Below the pieces are notes generated by a model. It searched no databases. It was not told the origin of the DNA and saw nothing but the letters and a program-made list of their open reading frames with translations. Made by a program: the position numbers and the translations under genes. Positions 21,882-27,599 of a DNA stretch of 48,179 bases are shown here, in pieces. The DNA comes from a phage, in the sequence record OZ503099.1. One strand, written 5' to 3'. Numbering within the stretch: the first letter of the stretch is position 1; each line of letters begins with the position of its first letter.

Positions 21882-22376
21882 TCATACTCTTGCTTCTTGC
21901 GTTTGGCTTTCCCCATGCTGACCTCTTACGTTGCGAAGAAGTGAATTGAACAGGTTGCTCACATTAACTTCCTGCTCATGCCATGAGTAACTCCACAGCT
22001 TCTTGTGGTGGTCATAGCTTCGCGTCACGTCTCCGTTATGAAACATAATGCGGATGCGGTTTTTCACGATTCGATAATCAATGCTAGTGTCTGCGCTAAT
22101 TTCTTTCACCTCTGCGCCAGCGTTATCAATCAAATGGCACTTAATGGCATCATCAATACCTGCCGCATCATCAGAGATGAAATATTTATACTGCCACTTA
22201 CCGCCACGAATCACTGACTTCTCACGGCGAATAAAGCCAAGTGCCAGCATCTCATGCAAACGATGCGTAGTTGTGCTTGAATGTTTACCACCGCAATGCT
22301 TTTCAATGTATGCGCGCGTTGCTCCCGGATGATTGACAATCACGCGCATTATTTGCGATTCATAGTCCATAATCAC
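21882..22376 (-). CDS. Hypothetical protein with N-terminal winged-helix-like region
   Basis: 164 aa; N-terminal 70 aa resemble a winged-helix DNA-binding fold. Confidence 0.35.
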   Translation of the reverse strand: MIMDYESQIMRVIVNHPGATRAYIEKHCGGKHSSTTTHRLHEMLALGFIRREKSVIRGGKWQYKYFISDDAAGIDDAIKCHLIDNAGAEVKEISADTSIDYRIVKNRIRIMFHNGDVTRSYDHHKKLWSYSWHEQEVNVSNLFNSLLRNVRGQHGESQTQEARV

Positions 22377-22614
22377 GCCCCTCTGCTACCTGATTGAAGT
22401 CTTCTGCGGTGTACAGGTTCCCACCTCTTGTGTTCCATTGCGTAGCTGCTGTCAGTTTTGTTACGTGAACATCACTTGAGCATCCGCACTCACACATGGC
22501 GAAATACATTCCATCATCGTTATATAACTTAACTTCGCTGCTGCCACAGAATGGGCACTCAAGCAGCATTTCATCATTCATTGTTGGCATATGTGGTGCG
22601 CTCATTTCACCCAC
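22360..22614 (-). CDS. Lar-family-like zinc-ribbon protein (possible restriction alleviation)
   Basis: LLECPFCGSSEVKLY...YFAMCECGCSS: CPFCG then CxCGC spacing as in Lar-family proteins. Confidence 0.5.
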   Translation of the reverse strand: MGEMSAPHMPTMNDEMLLECPFCGSSEVKLYNDDGMYFAMCECGCSSDVHVTKLTAATQWNTRGGNLYTAEDFNQVAEGRDYGL

Positions 22615-22796
22615 TCCCCAAGATTATTAAATTTAGGCGTATCACCAGACCAGTCGATAACGTCTTTCTGCTGACTACGCTTACGTTGCAGGCGGTTGCG
22701 CACTTCTCGCAGCTCGCATTCCAGCCATTCGCGAGTACGCTCAACTTCATTCAGTCGCTGGATTAGCGATTCTTCGTACAGTTCGTCATGCGCCAT
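22602..22796 (-). CDS. Hypothetical small coiled-coil protein
   Basis: 64-aa ORF. Confidence 0.4.
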   Translation of the reverse strand: MAHDELYEESLIQRLNEVERTREWLECELREVRNRLQRKRSQQKDVIDWSGDTPKFNNLGEWVK

Positions 22797-22856
22797 TTAT
22801 AATTTCTCCCGTAGAATTTGATAACAACATGCTCAATGCACAGATAACCTTCATCT

Positions 22857-23054
22857 TCAATCGTTACTGGTTGAACTATAAACCAGCGCGGATATAAGTT
22901 CGTCAGCCTTTTCACGACCAGCAACCTCCGCTTCAAGTGCCAGTGAACACATGGCAGTTTCCACATACTTAATGGTATCTTCGCGAACGTTAAGAATCTC
23001 CATAACCTCGCGCACCTCCTTCTGGTATCTCGCCGCTATTTCTTTGTATCGCAT
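22857..23054 (-). CDS. Hypothetical small protein
   Basis: ATG 23054 (MRYKEIAARY...); first gene of a minus-strand unit. Confidence 0.4.
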   Translation of the reverse strand: MRYKEIAARYQKEVREVMEILNVREDTIKYVETAMCSLALEAEVAGREKADELISALVYSSTSND

Positions 23055-23153
23055 TTCCACATCACCTTTTCTGTTATGGTACAATCTACGTCAACAAGTA
23101 TTGACTAAGTGATGTAGAAACGTCAAGATGTTTTTCGAGAAGGAGTAGTAAAT

Positions 23154-23378
23154 ATGCCAAGACCACGACGAGAGCCGATGGACATTATCACCAGCATTGT
23201 GGAGAAGCGGCAGCCGCTGACACTCCGTGATGTTCGCTACTTTGCCCGTTGCTATGTGGCGCTGGCTGATATGTCTAAGGGTGATATGTATGATTTGGTT
23301 CGTGAGAATTTTAACGTTGATGAACACAACCGCGTCACAATGCCGCGACGCGAGATGACTAAGTGGAGAGAGAAATGA
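23154..23378 (+). CDS. Hypothetical basic small protein
   Basis: 74 aa; AGGAG RBS at 23142-23146; first gene of island C. Confidence 0.45.
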   Translation: MPRPRREPMDIITSIVEKRQPLTLRDVRYFARCYVALADMSKGDMYDLVRENFNVDEHNRVTMPRREMTKWREK

Positions 23379-23959
23379 AGAAGTGGAAATATCTGAAAGG
23401 TTATGAGGATGATTTTGCTGGCCATGACACGGCTTGTCTTGTAGTTAAGTCAGGAAGCACTGGTGAGATTTTCTATCTAAGCATAGATTACGCTGGTCGC
23501 ATTGAAGTGATTGAGGGTTGCGGGGATATTGTTATTGCATACCGCGAGCCAATTACCGACGAACAAGACCTCAACGAATGTACTGGCGCTCCTGAAGCAG
23601 ATGTGAAGCGAGGTGGCTTTATTCCCAACACAACATTTGTTGGTGATTTCTTGCCTGAAGGGTATCCGATTTTTGGTCATCCCAATTGCCGATGCAAGGC
23701 AGTTAAGGTTGGAGAACTTCACACGGATGGGAAATGGCATGAGGCGCAACTTGGAAACAAATACCTGCGCGAGATTAAGCCGGGTGTATTTGTTGATGTG
23801 TACGATGTGCTCATGGCGTGGAATGCCACCAATCCAGCATTGCAGCACTTAATCAAGAAGGCATTGCAGGCTGGCGAGCGCGGACACAAATCACGCGAAC
23901 AAGATTTGCAAGACATCATTGACAGCGCAATTCGCGCAAAAGAACTGGAGATTAAATAA
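23375..23959 (+). CDS. Hypothetical protein
   Basis: 194 aa from ATG 23375 (ATGA overlap); Cys/His-containing. Confidence 0.5.
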   Translation: MKKWKYLKGYEDDFAGHDTACLVVKSGSTGEIFYLSIDYAGRIEVIEGCGDIVIAYREPITDEQDLNECTGAPEADVKRGGFIPNTTFVGDFLPEGYPIFGHPNCRCKAVKVGELHTDGKWHEAQLGNKYLREIKPGVFVDVYDVLMAWNATNPALQHLIKKALQAGERGHKSREQDLQDIIDSAIRAKELEIK

Positions 23960-24270
23960 TGGCATTTTGCGATATCACAATCGCGCAACGAAACGCGAAC
24001 TTTACCAACATTGCTGACACATCCGCACAACTGGTATCACTGAACAGCGACGGCAGCGCAGTGCTAAAAATCGGCACAGAAACAGCGCAATTCATCGTGC
24101 AGAATCTGTCGCAGGCGAACGCAAAGCAGGTACTGATTAGCACGGGTAGCGTGCTGTTTCTGGCTGGCAATTACAATGCACCTAACCTTGAGTGTTCACT
24201 GGTGCGCATCGTTGAAGCTGCGGTTGAGGAATCTGTTGATGAGTCAACAACAGTTCTCCCAATCGAATGA
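23959..24270 (+). CDS. Hypothetical protein
   Basis: 103 aa; TAATG overlap with upstream gene. Confidence 0.5.
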   Translation: MAFCDITIAQRNANFTNIADTSAQLVSLNSDGSAVLKIGTETAQFIVQNLSQANAKQVLISTGSVLFLAGNYNAPNLECSLVRIVEAAVEESVDESTTVLPIE

Positions 24271-24400
24271 GCCACAAAAACCATCTGCATGGTGTGAGCA
24301 AATGGAGCGCAATGCTAAAGATGGAGATGAAGCGTATGCTTATTTTCAGTTGAAGCAGATGTGGAAGCAGAGAGAAGAGTCGGAACACACCAGTTAAACA

Positions 24401-24426
24401 CAAGCCCCATCACGGGGCTTTTTTAT
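24401..24426. terminator. Rho-independent terminator (bidirectional)
   Basis: AAGCCCC-ATCA-CGGGGCTT hairpin followed by TTTTTTATT. Confidence 0.6.
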
Positions 24427-24901
24427 TGCGCAGCGAATTATACTGCGCCTCACACGCTAATCCTGCCTCTCTTGCCCTGTCAGCGTAATCTGCCAGCTGT
24501 CTATTTCTTTCGACAGATTTGCTGAGCACGTCGGAGAGCAAAACTCCGGTTTCTGCGGCTGGGTTGCCAATGGACTCAGCGGTGGAATATCCGACGAGCT
24601 GCTTGCGGATATTTGCGAGCTGTTGCTGCAACCTGCCAGACTTAGAAGCAGCATTGACAGCATCATTGCGCGCAGCGTCAATCCTTTGCTGTGCGTCGGC
24701 CTGAATCTTTTGCAGTTCTGCATTGCGTCGTTGCTCCTCTTGTTCGTCTGCGGCCTTTTGCTCTGCGATTGCTTGAGTCTTGCCTTCTGCGTATCGCTGG
24801 TCTCCGTAGCTGATGATTTCGCTACGCGCCCACAGCACGCCAGCTGCAACAATTATAATAATTGCCAGCGGTCGCCAGTATCTACTGAGTACTGTTTCCA
24901 T
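24410..24901 (-). CDS. Rz: i-spanin (Rz-like)
   Basis: 163 aa; N-terminal transmembrane anchor then Gln/Ala/Arg-rich coiled-coil-like domain; downstream of endolysin/holin; contains embedded Rz1 frame. Confidence 0.7.
   Translation of the reverse strand: METVLSRYWRPLAIIIIVAAGVLWARSEIISYGDQRYAEGKTQAIAEQKAADEQEEQRRNAELQKIQADAQQRIDAARNDAVNAASKSGRLQQQLANIRKQLVGYSTAESIGNPAAETGVLLSDVLSKSVERNRQLADYADRAREAGLACEAQYNSLRNKKAP
24457..24666 (-). CDS. Rz1: o-spanin (Rz1-like lipoprotein) embedded in Rz in another frame
   Basis: MMLSMLLLSLAGCSNS: signal peptide plus lipobox LAGC, Pro/Ser-rich mature part; entirely inside the Rz gene. Confidence 0.6.
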   Translation of the reverse strand: MMLSMLLLSLAGCSNSSQISASSSSDIPPLSPLATQPQKPEFCSPTCSANLSKEIDSWQITLTGQERQD

Positions 24902-26036: not shown

Positions 26037-26076
26037 TTGATGTAGATTGAGAGGTGGTGCATACTATCTACATCAA
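26037..26076 (+). promoter_or_regulatory. Promoter of island D with palindromic operator-like site
   Basis: TTGATG (26037-26042), 17 bp, CATACT (26060-26065); inverted repeat TTGATGTAGAT (26037-26047) / ATCTACATCAA (26066-26076). Confidence 0.45.
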
Positions 26077-26097
26077 ATGATGAGTGAGGGAGAAATC

Positions 26098-26241
26098 ATG
26101 GTAATAGTCAAATTCAAAGAAACAGGATGCCGCAGAATGTTCAACCTTGAGCAAATCAAAATACGTCCATGCGGCAAGGTGGTTGCGCCATTTAGTCTGG
26201 TGCAGATGCGTGAATGCGAAATTGTTGAATATATTAAGTGA
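26098..26241 (+). CDS. Hypothetical small protein
   Basis: 47 aa from ATG 26098; four Cys. Confidence 0.4.
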   Translation: MVIVKFKETGCRRMFNLEQIKIRPCGKVVAPFSLVQMRECEIVEYIK

Positions 26242-26249
26242 GGCAGGCT

Positions 26250-26513
26250 ATGACGCAGCGCCAGGTGTACCAGTTATTTAGTGAGTGGTTTGATTATGTT
26301 GGTTTTGTCGGCATGACGGATAGAGAAAAGGACTTGATTTGGCTTGGGTTTTCTGTTGGTTATTGTCACGAAAATAGTAAATCAATGCTATCAGCGCTCC
26401 AGCAACTCTTGGAAATCTACGACGACCACTCCGGCAAGGTCTGGACAACATCAAGCAAGCGTCGCGCTCTTGATAATGCGCGTGCGGCGGTTAATAAAGC
26501 ATTGGGAGAATAA
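26250..26513 (+). CDS. Hypothetical protein
   Basis: 87 aa from ATG 26250. Confidence 0.45.
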   Translation: MTQRQVYQLFSEWFDYVGFVGMTDREKDLIWLGFSVGYCHENSKSMLSALQQLLEIYDDHSGKVWTTSSKRRALDNARAAVNKALGE

Positions 26514-26515
26514 TT

Positions 26516-26740
26516 ATGTGGCTTGTATTTAATATTGGATGCATAGAATGCGGTGTCTCATCAAATGTTGTTGCTGTTTATCCGCACAAACATGAAGCCG
26601 ATGCTGTCGCAGCAAAACTAAATGAAAAATTCTCATGGCGAGACGGCGGTCAAAACTCGTATGAGGTATTTAAGCTTGGTGAACTGTACGAGGTTGAAGG
26701 TGAATATAAAGAAATACTTTCTGATGGAGAAACAAAATGA
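26516..26740 (+). CDS. Hypothetical protein
   Basis: 74-aa ORF. Confidence 0.45.
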   Translation: MWLVFNIGCIECGVSSNVVAVYPHKHEADAVAAKLNEKFSWRDGGQNSYEVFKLGELYEVEGEYKEILSDGETK

Positions 26741-26952
26741 GCAACAAGAAGGTAATTGTTGGTGGCATTTACAAGAGTAATTACTCTTGGGGCGATGCAG
26801 GTGTGGCTAGTTTCATGGTAACTGCGGTTGGGTTGGAACACATACTTATCGCTGACTACCCATTGATAAAACTCAATGAATCCTGTTTAGAATATTGTGT
26901 TGGTAGAAAGGAATTCGAATCAAAATTTGAGTTTGTGGAGGAAACAAAATGA
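26737..26952 (+). CDS. Hypothetical protein
   Basis: 71-aa ORF; ATGA overlap. Confidence 0.45.
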   Translation: MSNKKVIVGGIYKSNYSWGDAGVASFMVTAVGLEHILIADYPLIKLNESCLEYCVGRKEFESKFEFVEETK

Positions 26953-27599
26953 AACTTATCGACCTGTTAGTTCAAGAATTGCCTAAGCGTGGTGGGTGGC
27001 CTCACAATGCGCTGTCAATTACCCAAGATGATGACGGTTCTCTGTGCGTATGGGACACAAATGACCCAAACTATGATGGATTGTCATGGAGACATCACAC
27101 AGGGAATAGCCTTGTATATTACTGGCGTGGAATTGATGCCGTACCTTTATCTTGCGACCACAGGGAGTCGATAGTGACCTATTGGCAATACAAATCAGCG
27201 ATCGCAGCATCGCAAAAGCCAGCATGGAACGGAGATGGCTTACCGCCAGTTGGTGAAAAAGTAGAATTTTTCATCAATCCAAAGTTTGGATACCGCAATG
27301 ACTGGATTCCTGCTGCTGGAACTGAAATGGAAGTAGTTGCACACAAGAAAACCACGGACGGAAACGATGTGGCTGTTTGCTACTGGGATGAGGGTGGCGC
27401 CGGTCGGTCATGCTGCTTCGTGCCTGAAAGCCTAAAGCCATTACGCACAGAAGCAGAAAAGAAGCATGAGGCTGTACTTGAGTCTATCTGCGCGGTGTTA
27501 GAAATGGTAGCTCAAGATTACAAGCGCGAGGACGAGGCCAAGCTAATTTATGAAGCTATCGCGGCAGGCAAGATTCCAGGTGTTAAACTGGATGATTAA
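26949..27599 (+). CDS. Hypothetical protein (216 aa, Trp-rich)
   Basis: Largest ORF of island D; no recognisable motif. Confidence 0.5.
   Translation: MKLIDLLVQELPKRGGWPHNALSITQDDDGSLCVWDTNDPNYDGLSWRHHTGNSLVYYWRGIDAVPLSCDHRESIVTYWQYKSAIAASQKPAWNGDGLPPVGEKVEFFINPKFGYRNDWIPAAGTEMEVVAHKKTTDGNDVAVCYWDEGGAGRSCCFVPESLKPLRTEAEKKHEAVLESICAVLEMVAQDYKREDEAKLIYEAIAAGKIPGVKLDD

What the first reader, a model, noticed from the sequence alone, without database searches (positions are those of the whole stretch)
23054..24426. Island C: plus-strand cassette of unknown genes between head and lysis genes
Three to four coupled ORFs (74, 194, 103 and possibly 52 aa) with an AGGAG ribosome-binding site and a strong terminator sit in a divergent regulatory region carrying TTGACGTAGATTG (reverse) and TGATGTAGAAAC. 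None resembles a known family that I can name.
Basis: seen in the sequence. Interest (0 to 1): 0.4.

Follow-up and report, generated by a model that had tools for sequence, protein, structure and literature searches.

The report
Phage accessory operon with gp1.7-like protein
This is a real four-gene accessory operon of a Skatevirus-type coliphage; its largest protein ends in a very widespread, uncatalogued domain that is probably a distant relative of the phage T7 nucleotide kinase gp1.7, so the cassette is mostly ordinary but now has a testable function.

Summary
Four plus-strand ORFs (74, 194, 103 and 52 aa) are translationally coupled, preceded by AAGGAG and closed by a strong intrinsic terminator. 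They sit between a leftward small-gene operon that leads to the head genes and the convergent lysis genes. All four are conserved and under purifying selection in more than 130 related phages (Skatevirus/Deseoctovirus cluster, about 90% nt identity), where they are annotated as hypothetical. None resembles a virion protein.

ORF2 is a three-part chimera: a lineage-specific N-domain, an optional disordered Cys/His insert, and a near-invariant 66-aa C-domain. That C-domain occurs in at least 2,472 protein clusters and 769 phage genomes, and no Pfam model detects it. De-replicated profile-profile comparison (E 1.8e-4; 0 of 400 shuffles) and fold matches suggest a divergent branch of DUF3310, the domain of T7 gp1.7 and lactococcal SaV. 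In very close relatives the same N-domain carries DUF6378 instead.

ORF4 belongs to a roughly 35-aa mini-protein family that lies beside dUTPase, dNMP kinase or NrdD genes in unrelated phages. ORF1 and ORF3 remain unknown.

Best reading: an accessory operon, probably expressed early, that acts on nucleotide pools or host takeover. The biochemical function is inferred, not shown.

The parts
23055..23153 (.). Divergent intergenic regulatory region (99 bp) between the leftward small-gene operon and the rightward cassette
   Evidence: It is nearly identical in Bas77 and partly conserved in ASO78B. The leftward gene most likely starts at ATG 23054 (phrog_37091 matches residues 11-74 of the 75-aa ORF), with AAGGTG upstream.
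23056..23085 (+). Candidate rightward promoter A: TCCACA-18-TACAAT with TG (extended -10)
   Evidence: Both hexamers are conserved in ASO78B (TCCACA ... TGATAGAAT). Pattern match only.
23101..23129 (+). Candidate rightward promoter B: TTGACT-17-CAAGAT
   Evidence: Read from the sequence. The homologous TTGACT site is annotated as a promoter in phage ASO78B and GTATTGACTA is invariant. The -10 is weak (3 of 6).
23097..23126 (-). Candidate leftward promoter TTGACG-18-AATACT; a second TTGACGT lies at 23088-23094
   Evidence: direct repeat ACGTCAA at 23088 and 23120. Pattern match only.
23054..23120 (.). Inverted repeat TTTCCACATCAC (23054-23065) / GTGATGTAGAAA (23109-23120), centres 55 bp apart; possible operator pair
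   Evidence: 11 of 12 complementary. By my own estimate, about 0.1 such pairs are expected by chance in 300 bp. The left arm overlaps the RBS and start of the leftward gene, so its conservation is not independent evidence.
23140..23145 (+). Shine-Dalgarno AAGGAG, 8 nt upstream of the ORF1 ATG
   Evidence: invariant.
23154..23378 (+). ORF1, 74 aa, basic N-terminus, function unknown; always the first gene of the cassette
   Evidence: phrog_14963 at E 3.9e-42. tblastn finds it in 207 phage records: Skate-like, Klebsiella Roufvirus-like and Yersinia P400. No Pfam, NCBIfam, PADLOC or PDB hit.
23375..23578 (+). ORF2 N-terminal domain (aa 1-68), compact alpha/beta, lineage-specific and fast-evolving
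   Evidence: AF2 pLDDT above 92. Matches positions 1-79 of phrog_17775. No PDB fold match. Non-synonymous changes equal or exceed synonymous ones in two of three comparisons.
23579..23755 (+). ORF2 linker plus optional insert (aa 69-127), predicted disordered, contains HPNCRCK...H...H
   Evidence: pLDDT below 50. Residues 77-127 are absent from the 143-aa versions such as Bas77_0025.
23756..23959 (+). ORF2 C-terminal domain (aa 128-194) plus stop: a beta-hairpin and three helices with a basic GERGHKS loop; DUF3310-like
   Evidence: details in the report.
23959..24270 (+). ORF3, 103 aa: small beta-barrel with two helices and a disordered acidic tail (aa 89-103); function unknown
24239..24397 (+). 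ORF4, 52 aa mini-protein, conserved core PSAWCEQMERNAKDGDEAYAYFQLKQMWKQRE
   Evidence: phrog_1312 at E 5.9e-15. Found in 308 phage records. Synonymous to non-synonymous 9:1, 8:5 and 10:2. Neighbours elsewhere are dUTPase, dNMP kinase, NrdD or a stand-alone DUF3310-like protein.
24402..24428 (+). Intrinsic terminator AAGCCCC-ATCAC-GGGGCTT plus TTTTTATT, shared with the convergent spanin gene
   Evidence: The stop codon of the minus-strand Rz-like spanin (24410-24412) lies in the hairpin loop. Terminators are annotated at the same place in ASO78B.

Best explanation
The region is a small accessory (non-structural) operon of a Skatevirus/Deseoctovirus-type siphophage. Host RNA polymerase probably starts at a sigma-70-type promoter in the 99-bp divergent intergenic region. 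It transcribes four translationally coupled genes and stops at the hairpin shared with the convergent lysis operon.

The operon's products most likely act on the deoxynucleotide pool or on host takeover rather than on virion assembly. ORF2 is a modular protein. A lineage-specific N-domain and an optional disordered Cys/His insert carry a highly conserved C-terminal domain, which is a divergent member of the DUF3310 superfamily (T7 gp1.7 dTMP/dGMP kinase; lactococcal SaV). It probably binds and phosphorylates, or otherwise handles, dNMPs as gp1.7 does.

ORF4 is a roughly 35-aa helical mini-protein that travels with dNTP-metabolism genes in many phages and may be an accessory factor of such enzymes. 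ORF1 (the conserved leader gene) and ORF3 (a small barrel with an acidic tail) have no assignable function.

Shown: the gene structure, coupling, conservation, purifying selection, modularity and domain swapping. Moderately supported: the DUF3310 relationship (about 0.7). Inferred: early timing, promoter identity, kinase activity and the role of ORF4. The confidence value given is for the nucleotide-handling reading as a whole; that this is a real, non-structural accessory operon is about 0.9.
For: The genome context is non-structural. The divergent leftward operon encodes a Lar-like restriction-alleviation protein (TIGR03655, E 1.5e-9) and a MarR-like regulator (phrog_1687). Bas77, about 91% identical, has no other annotated nucleotide-pool enzyme.

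The ORF2 C-domain occurs in 2,472 clusters at E <= 1e-3. It is typically 65-85% identical over about 66 aa and is fused to many different N-termini. It is present in 769 phage records.

Homology to DUF3310 rests on four observations:
- T7 gp1.7 has the same architecture, with PF11753 at residues 122-184 of 196.
- hhalign of divergent C-domain members against divergent DUF3310 members gives E 1.8e-4 over 75 columns in a whole-domain register. The score is 26.8, against a mean of 10, sd 2 and maximum 18.4 in 400 column shuffles, and 10.4 for the reversed profile. After redundancy filtering at 60% or less the E-value is 4.4e-4 to 4.6e-4. DUF6378 as a negative control scores 12.7-13.7.
- Apart from three mis-named members of its own family at ranks 9, 10 and 49, the functionally named weaker Foldseek hits in BFVD are SaV-like, DUF3310 or 'nucleotide kinase' proteins. 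Two examples are rmsd 1.0 A over 49 columns (prob 1.00) and rmsd 1.8 A over 53 columns (prob 0.97).
- The N-part of Acinetobacter phage WCHABP1 gp59 hits phrog_23238, whose C-part is a canonical DUF3310 region hit by gp1.7. One homologue is named DUF3310 by its source (P0107).

Function of DUF3310 proteins, from the literature: gp1.7 phosphorylates dTMP and dGMP (PMC11897194, PMC10700055). SaV is an early, toxic protein (PMC8306868).

The ORF4 family lies directly beside dUTPase (9g and SP8), a P-loop dNMP kinase (Vibrio Maculvirus), NrdD (Aeromonas LA93P2) and a stand-alone C-domain protein (AHS24).
Against: - PF11753 does not hit ORF2, 100 family members or five divergent members, even at E <= 10.
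- The PHROG families hit by ORF2 and by gp1.7 do not overlap.
- With unfiltered, redundancy-dominated profiles the hhalign result is not significant (E 0.07-0.35). ORF2 alone against the DUF3310 profile gives E 0.3. The link is therefore transitive, through divergent family members.
- Foldseek E-values to named DUF3310 proteins are 0.25-0.56.
- To my knowledge it is not established that the DUF3310 domain itself carries the gp1.7 kinase activity.
- SaV-type members are known only as toxic or defence-triggering proteins.
- Close relatives replace the C-domain with DUF6378. That fits an interchangeable effector as well as it fits an essential enzyme.
- The ORF4 association rests on seven lineages, and in two of them (Braunvirinae) the neighbours are unknown genes.
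- No transcription data exist, and promoter-like sites are not enriched.
Confidence: 0.4

Rival explanations
1. The cassette encodes host-takeover or counter-defence effectors rather than enzymes. The conserved ORF2 C-domain would bind a conserved host target (SaV-like toxicity). The N-domain and the swappable C-terminus would diversify under pressure from host immune sensors that recognise DUF3310-type proteins.
For: - DUF3310 proteins are sensed by defence systems: SaV determines sensitivity to AbiV and is toxic (PMC8306868), and gp1.7 activates EfAvs5 (PMC11897194).
- DUF3310 proteins are strongly cytotoxic in mycobacteriophage screens (PMC10700055).
- The same N-domain carries either the DUF3310-like domain or DUF6378 in phages about 87-90% identical.
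- The N-domain evolves fast.
- The divergent neighbouring operon carries a Lar-like anti-restriction gene.
- Cassette content varies between relatives: an extra 73-aa gene in Bas77 and ASO78B, and presence or absence of the insert.
Against: There are no hits to known defence proteins (PADLOC), and the libraries searched hold no dedicated models of anti-defence proteins. The extreme conservation of the C-domain across thousands of phages of different hosts fits a universal small-molecule substrate at least as well as a host protein target. [quoted passage not shown]
Confidence: 0.3
2. The cassette is a set of dispensable 'filler' ORFan genes with no common theme. The DUF3310 similarity and the ORF4 neighbourhood pattern would be coincidental consequences of small helical domains and of gene-dense early regions.
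For: Sequence-profile support is borderline and depends on weighting. ORF1 and ORF3 have no detectable relatives outside the lineage. Phage early regions are rich in nucleotide-metabolism genes anyway.
Against: All four genes are under purifying selection. The C-domain is among the most conserved small phage modules seen here. The shuffle, reversed and DUF6378 controls argue against a composition artefact. The functionally named weak fold hits point to one family only.
Confidence: 0.15
3. The ORFs encode minor virion or assembly proteins.
For: The cassette lies between head and lysis modules. Some database records label neighbouring genes 'tail protein' or 'tail assembly chaperone'.
Confidence: 0.03

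Closest known systems
T7 gp1.7 nucleotide (dTMP/dGMP) kinase, Pfam DUF3310 (PF11753)
   Same: Similar size (196 vs 194 aa) and architecture: a variable Cys-containing N-part followed by a C-terminal domain of about 65 aa. The two domains align over their whole length (Y130 to the HY motif, D141 to E, K161 to K, G167 to G, D177 to D, A185 to A). Both are non-structural genes in a small-gene region. Profile-profile E is 1.8e-4, and the fold superposes on DUF3310/SaV-like models.
   Different: Not detected by PF11753 or by any 'nucleotide kinase' PHROG. ORF2 has KY instead of HY and a longer basic loop (GERGHKS). The N-domain is unrelated. No activity is known.
SaV of lactococcal phages p2 / sk1 (DUF3310; AbiV sensitivity determinant)
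   Same: A small phage protein of the same superfamily. Foldseek hits include proteins labelled SaV-like (rmsd 1.0 A over 49 columns).
   Different: SaV is a short, domain-only protein of Gram-positive phages. Nothing is known about toxicity or defence triggering for ORF2.
Uncatalogued phage family phrog_2452 / 13223 / 35158 / 23361 / 18443 / 17613 (all 'unknown', one labelled 'ATPase')
   Same: The ORF2 C-domain is a bona fide member (E 1e-28 to 1e-10). Members occur in Jerseyvirus, Kagunavirus, Drexlerviridae, Queuovirinae, Obolenskvirus, and Vibrio and Pseudomonas phages, often near RusA or RdgC.
   Different: ORF2 combines this domain with the N-domain of phrog_17775, whose canonical members carry DUF6378 instead.
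DUF6378 (PF19905) proteins at the syntenic position (ASO78B_023, Klebsiella ZCKp20p gp32, Yersinia P400 gp32)
   Same: Same slot in the cassette, and the same N-domain and linker in ASO78B_023 and P0231.
   Different: The C-terminal domain is different, with no detectable similarity to the ORF2 C-domain (hhalign E 0.09) or to DUF3310 (E 0.13).

Membership tests
DUF3310 / gp1.7-SaV superfamily (PF11753) | Significant match to the Pfam PF11753 model | tested here: not met
   No hit for ORF2, its C-domain alone, 100 family members or 5 divergent members, even at E <= 10. The positive control T7 gp1.7 hits at 4.5e-23.
DUF3310 / gp1.7-SaV superfamily (PF11753) | Profile-profile similarity over the whole domain | tested here: met
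   hhalign of 6 divergent C-domain sequences against 9 divergent DUF3310 sequences gives E 1.8e-4, Prob 49% and 75 columns. None of 400 column shuffles reaches the score, and the reversed profile scores 10.4. E is 4.4e-4 to 4.6e-4 after filtering at 60% identity or less. Caveat: the result is not significant with redundant profiles (E 0.07-0.35) or with ORF2 alone (E 0.3).
DUF3310 / gp1.7-SaV superfamily (PF11753) | Same fold as DUF3310 proteins | tested here: inconclusive
   Foldseek against BFVD matches SaV-like A0A6J5MII1 (prob 1.00, rmsd 1.0 A over 49 columns, E 0.25) and DUF3310 protein I6RT60 (prob 0.97, rmsd 1.8 A over 53 columns, E 0.56). No solved structure is available.
DUF3310 / gp1.7-SaV superfamily (PF11753) | Nucleotide kinase activity (dTMP or dGMP to the diphosphate) | not testable with these tools
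   A biochemical assay is needed. Activity is known only for T7 gp1.7 (cited in PMC11897194 and PMC10700055).
DUF6378 (PF19905) | Match to PF19905 | tested here: not met
   ORF2 has no hit. Syntenic relatives do hit: ZCKp20p gp32 at 9.7e-7, P400 gp32 at 7.9e-6 and P0231 at 1.1e-5. hhalign of the C-domain against DUF6378 gives E 0.09.
PUA-like barrels (YTH / ASCH / EVE), considered for ORF3 | Fold similarity with a convincing score, plus an aromatic binding cage | tested here: inconclusive
Virion / assembly proteins | Homology to structural or assembly families | tested here: not met
   None in PHROGs, Pfam, NCBIfam, PDB sequence search or fold searches.
Known anti-phage defence proteins (PADLOC) | Match to a PADLOC model | tested here: not met
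   No hits for ORF1-4 at E <= 1.
Rho-independent terminator | G+C-rich hairpin followed by a U-run, more stable than shuffles | tested here: met
   A 7-bp stem with 5 G-C pairs, a 5-nt loop and a T-run. Fold energy -12.8 kcal/mol, z = -2.97, 0 of 200 shuffles as stable.
Sigma-70 promoter | -35 and -10 hexamers at 16-18 nt spacing, conserved, and active | tested here: inconclusive
   Candidates lie at 23056-23085 (+), 23101-23129 (+) and 23126-23097 (-) and are conserved in relatives. The number of such sites is not above shuffles, and no transcript data exist.

The most novel reading that the evidence does not exclude
The ORF2 C-domain family (at least 2,472 clusters, unrecognised by Pfam) and the ORF4-type mini-protein may form part of a widespread, so far undescribed phage module that manipulates dNTP pools. 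On this reading, the exchange of the DUF3310-like domain for DUF6378 on an identical N-domain in near-identical phages is an immune-evasion swap, driven by host sensors that recognise DUF3310 proteins (Avs5- or AbiV-type).
Probability: 0.12. Interest if true: 0.65.

Novelty: new variant of a known kind. Interest (0 to 1): 0.35.

Why it matters
For this window, it gives testable assignments to parts of an 'unknown island': a candidate gp1.7-like nucleotide-handling protein in a phage group that has no other annotated nucleotide-pool enzyme.

More generally, it flags a very conserved domain of about 66 aa, present in hundreds of sequenced phages of enterobacteria, Vibrio, Acinetobacter and Pseudomonas. 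That domain is everywhere annotated as hypothetical and is missing from Pfam. Linking it to DUF3310 would extend the gp1.7/SaV superfamily considerably.

That superfamily is of current interest because its members trigger Avs5 and AbiV. The natural domain swap with DUF6378 in BASEL-collection relatives (Bas77-81, compared with ASO78B) offers a ready genetic system to test function.

Tried and rejected
- Pfam, NCBIfam and PADLOC scans of ORF1-4 gave nothing.
- Pfam scans of close homologues, 100 family members and 5 divergent members found no PF11753.
- PDB sequence searches for ORF1-4 and for DUF6378 found only chance hits, such as the Qbeta A2 protein at E 0.045.
- Foldseek of the ORF2 model against PDB found nothing with E below 1.
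- The afdb50 fold library was unavailable.
- BLASTP of ORF2 against gp1.7 gave nothing.
- The first hhalign, using large redundant alignments, was not significant. It reached significance only after de-replication and the addition of divergent members.
- hhalign of DUF6378 against the C-domain or against DUF3310 was not significant, so these are treated as different domains.
- Names for ten distant cluster representatives were all hypothetical or absent.
- Rfam on 22700-24700 gave only a chance snoRNA hit at E 0.96.
- TTGACGT as a phage-wide promoter motif is not enriched.
- The original Tran et al. papers on gp1.7 are not held in the library. Statements on gp1.7 biochemistry therefore rest on secondary citations.
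- The idea that Bas77_0024 (73 aa) corresponds to the ORF2 C-domain was rejected. It is a separate extra gene (phrog_38236) that is absent from the window.
- The 'thymidylate synthase' label of Yersinia P400 gp32 was rejected. It is an N-extended DUF6378 protein.
Full report
**What the window is.**
The 48-kb window is a small siphovirus of the Skatevirus/Deseoctovirus cluster. The cassette region is about 90% identical at the nucleotide level to Shigella phage DS8, Escherichia phages C1 and Bas77-81, and Salmonella phage IME207. The BASEL paper groups Bas77-81 with Skatevirus (PMC11990801). In the fully annotated relative Bas77, structural modules alternate with short blocks of small genes in the opposite orientation. 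No classical nucleotide-pool enzyme is annotated there.

**Check of the observation.**
- ORF1, 23154-23378, 74 aa.
- ORF2, 23375-23959, 194 aa, with its ATG overlapping the ORF1 stop as ATGA.
- ORF3, 23959-24270, 103 aa, with a TAATG overlap.
- ORF4, 24239-24397, 52 aa, with a 32-nt overlap.

AAGGAG lies 8 nt upstream of ORF1. The terminator is a 7-bp G+C-rich hairpin plus T-run at 24402-24428. It folds at -12.8 kcal/mol with z = -3.0 against shuffles. The stop codon of the convergent Rz-like spanin (DUF2514, E 3.6e-30) sits in its loop, so one hairpin closes both operons.

All four ORFs hit PHROG families (E 1e-15 to 1e-62) and keep their order in relatives. Against three relatives their substitutions are mainly synonymous: ORF3 21:3, ORF4 10:2 and the ORF2 C-domain 11:5. 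They are real genes, including the short overlapping ORF4.

**The regulatory region.**
The true intergenic region is 23055-23153. The leftward gene most likely starts at ATG 23054, because phrog_37091 matches residues 11-74 of the longer ORF.

They are parts of two repeats:
- A direct repeat of ACGTCAA at 23088 and 23120, which reads TTGACGT on the minus strand.
- A 12-nt inverted repeat, TTTCCACATCAC at 23054-23065 and GTGATGTAGAAA at 23109-23120.

Candidate sigma-70 promoters exist in both directions:
- Plus strand: TCCACA-18-TACAAT with TG, at 23056-23085.
- Plus strand: TTGACT-17-CAAGAT, at 23101-23129, homologous to a site annotated as a promoter in ASO78B.
- Minus strand: TTGACG-18-AATACT, at 23126-23097.

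These come, and the elements are conserved in relatives. However, such sites are not more frequent than in shuffled sequence, and TTGACGT is not enriched in the genome. Promoter identity and early timing are therefore inferences. Rfam finds no RNA element. GC content is unremarkable.

**ORF2 is modular.**
An alignment of close homologues and the AF2 model (mean pLDDT 78.6) show three parts:
- Residues 1-68 form a confident alpha/beta N-domain (pLDDT above 92).
- Residues 69-127 are a disordered linker. It includes an optional insert (77-127, with HPNCRCK...H...H) that is missing from the 143-aa versions such as Bas77_0025.
- Residues 128-194 form a confident C-domain (pLDDT above 90). It has a beta-hairpin, two short helices, a basic loop (GERGHKS) and a long helix.

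The N-domain matches the N-terminal half of phrog_17775. It evolves fast, with non-synonymous changes equal to or above synonymous ones in two of three comparisons.

**The C-domain is a very widespread, uncatalogued module.**
An exhaustive HMMER search of 1.84 billion cluster representatives found 2,472 proteins at E <= 1e-3. Nearly all match only residues 126-193, typically at 65-85% identity. They are 76-327 aa long with unrelated N- or C-terminal partners.

The invariant residues are Y130, D141, Y143, H158, K161, K162, L164, G167, R169, G170, K172, S184 and R187. tblastn finds the domain in 769 phage records, among them Jersey-like Salmonella phages, CAjan-like and T1-like coliphages, a Kagunavirus, Obolenskvirus, Vibrio ICP2 and Pseudomonas phage Itty13. 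Almost all are annotated as hypothetical. In divergent members the gene sits next to RusA or RdgC.

No Pfam model hits any of 100 members or five divergent members. There is no solved structure.

**Relation to DUF3310 (T7 gp1.7 / SaV).**
My starting lead was a resemblance in motifs. One database homologue (P0107) is labelled DUF3310 by its source. T7 gp1.7 has the same layout, with PF11753 at residues 122-184 of 196.

Direct tests were initially negative:
- BLASTP gave nothing.
- The PHROG families hit by ORF2 and by gp1.7 do not overlap.
- hhalign of two large but redundant alignments gave E 0.23-0.35.

I then fetched divergent members of both families, choosing them only by low identity in spread lists. 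The divergent C-domain proteins keep an HY motif (HSHYFKDV..IDVYRVL..DPCIQHAVKKLLCAGGRG.KD..KD..EAIDSL). They align with DUF3310 (P.HY..gIE.Ie.I...MT.EqFkGf.kGNilKY..R..kK...eDLkKA..YL) over the whole domain.

The results with these sequences were:
- hhalign gave E 1.8e-4, probability 49%, over 75 columns.
- The score of 26.8 compares with a mean of 10, sd 2 and maximum 18.4 in 400 column shuffles, and with 10.4 for the reversed profile.
- Filtering the large alignments to 60% identity or less gave E 4.4e-4 to 4.6e-4.
- DUF6378, used as an unrelated control, scored 12.7-13.7.

There is independent support from structure. In a Foldseek search of BFVD, the top hits are members of the C-domain's own family. 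Three of those own-family hits carry unrelated annotation names (DNA ligase, terminase large subunit, AAA domain protein, at ranks 9, 10 and 49). Apart from these, every functionally named weaker hit is SaV-like, DUF3310 or 'nucleotide kinase'. Local superpositions reach 1.0 A over 49 columns and 1.8 A over 53 columns (prob 1.00 and 0.97), but the E-values are only 0.25-0.56.

One further link is architectural. An N-terminal module of Acinetobacter phage WCHABP1 gp59 also occurs in phrog_23238, whose C-terminus is a canonical DUF3310 region.

I conclude that the C-domain is probably (about 70%) a divergent branch of the DUF3310 superfamily. The link for ORF2 itself is transitive, and PF11753 membership in the strict sense is not met.

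**What DUF3310 proteins do.**
- T7 gp1.7 phosphorylates dTMP and dGMP (as cited in PMC11897194 and PMC10700055; the primary papers are not held).
- gp1.7 activates the Avs5 defence protein (PMC11897194).
- SaV is an early, toxic protein that determines sensitivity to AbiV (PMC8306868).
- DUF3310 proteins are strongly cytotoxic in mycobacteriophage screens (PMC10700055).
- Many T7-group homologues are only 82-149 aa long, little more than the domain itself.

To my knowledge, no one has shown that the domain itself is the catalytic unit.

**Domain swapping at the same locus.**
In phage ASO78B (cassette region about 87% identical at the nucleotide level), the syntenic gene has the same N-domain and linker but ends in a DUF6378 domain. 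The same holds for P0231, which is 46% identical to ORF2 over residues 2-138. Klebsiella phage ZCKp20p gp32 and Yersinia phage P400 gp32 also carry DUF6378 at this slot (PF19905, E 1e-6 to 1e-5). The P400 gene is mislabelled thymidylate synthase.

phrog_17775 is in fact this N-domain plus DUF6378. ORF2 of the window is therefore a chimera of that N-domain with the DUF3310-like module. Cassette content also varies in other ways. Bas77 and ASO78B have an extra gene of 71-73 aa, while Bas80 has the four-gene layout of the window.

**ORF4.**
Its conserved core (PS[AE]WC.[KR]M..EAKDG[DE].AY.Y[FYW]QL...W..R) occurs in 308 phage records. Its immediate neighbours in unrelated lineages are:
- dUTPase in Nonagvirus 9g and SP8.
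- A P-loop dNMP kinase in Vibrio Maculvirus.
- NrdD in Aeromonas phage LA93P2.
- A stand-alone 87-aa C-domain protein in the T1-like phage AHS24.
- Unknown small genes in two Braunvirinae phages.

This is a small sample without statistics. It is nevertheless consistent with a link to nucleotide metabolism.

**ORF1 and ORF3.**
ORF1 is the invariant first gene of the cassette in Skate-like, Klebsiella Roufvirus-like and Yersinia phages (207 records). It has no detectable family beyond its PHROG.

**Conclusion.**
The finding is a genuine, well-delimited accessory operon, and it is not virion-related. Most of it remains of unknown function.

The best-supported mechanistic reading is a nucleotide-pool or host-takeover operon, probably expressed early, built around a gp1.7/SaV-like protein (confidence about 0.4 for the nucleotide-handling function). 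The main rival is a counter-defence or immune-evasion role for the same proteins. The two are not mutually exclusive.

The cassette is already present in many deposited genomes. The new elements are the remote assignment of a very large orphan domain family, the natural swap between the DUF3310-like domain and DUF6378, and the neighbourhood pattern of the ORF4 mini-protein.

Noticed in passing
window 24239-24397 (ORF4); L019:1480-1608, L022:2022-2126, L023:1989-2108, L024:1995-2102: ORF4 belongs to a mini-protein family of about 35 aa (phrog_1312; 308 phage records). In unrelated phages it lies immediately next to, and often overlaps, dUTPase, a P-loop dNMP kinase, NrdD or a stand-alone DUF3310-like protein. 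The gene is unannotated in some records, for example Vibrio phage SSJ01.
   Followed up: partly
L002:3550-4041 (ASO78B_023) vs window 23375-23959; L004:2898-3284; L005:3166-3873: Near-identical phages carry the same N-domain fused either to the DUF3310-like domain or to DUF6378. Yersinia phage P400 gp32, annotated as 'thymidylate synthase', is actually an N-extended DUF6378 protein.
   Followed up: yes
window 22360-22614 (-) and 21882-22376 (-): The divergent leftward operon encodes a Lar-family restriction-alleviation protein (TIGR03655, E 1.5e-9, just under its cut-off) and a 164-aa MarR-like winged-helix protein (phrog_1687, E 4.5e-55). The latter is a candidate regulator for the inverted repeat in the intergenic region.
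   Followed up: partly
window 23054-23065 and 23109-23120: A 12-nt inverted repeat (11 of 12 complementary), with centres 55 bp apart, flanks the candidate promoters. It could be an operator pair, or chance (about 0.1 expected by my estimate).
   Followed up: partly
window 24457-24666 (-), inside the Rz-like spanin gene 24410-24901: The alternative frame of the spanin gene contains MMLSMLLLSLAGCSNSS..., that is, a signal peptide with a lipobox (LAGC). This is probably an embedded Rz1-like o-spanin of about 69 aa.
   Followed up: no
window 24402-24420: The stop codon of the minus-strand spanin (24410-24412) lies in the loop of the cassette terminator hairpin, so a single hairpin closes two convergent operons.
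   Followed up: partly
window 22857-23084 (-): The 75-aa ORF listed from a TTG start is probably a 65-aa protein starting at ATG 23054, with AAGGTG upstream. phrog_37091, 65 positions long, matches residues 11-74.
   Followed up: partly
window 26047-27599 (+): A second plus-strand block of small genes lies between the lysis genes and the head-morphogenesis genes. It includes a 216-aa protein (phrog_7798) and has the same island-like architecture, with all functions unknown.
   Followed up: no
L007:643-1410 (Acinetobacter phage WCHABP1 gp59): Residues 81-116 hit the N-terminal part of phrog_23238, whose C-terminal part is a canonical DUF3310 region hit by T7 gp1.7. The same N-module therefore pairs with either domain type.
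   Followed up: partly
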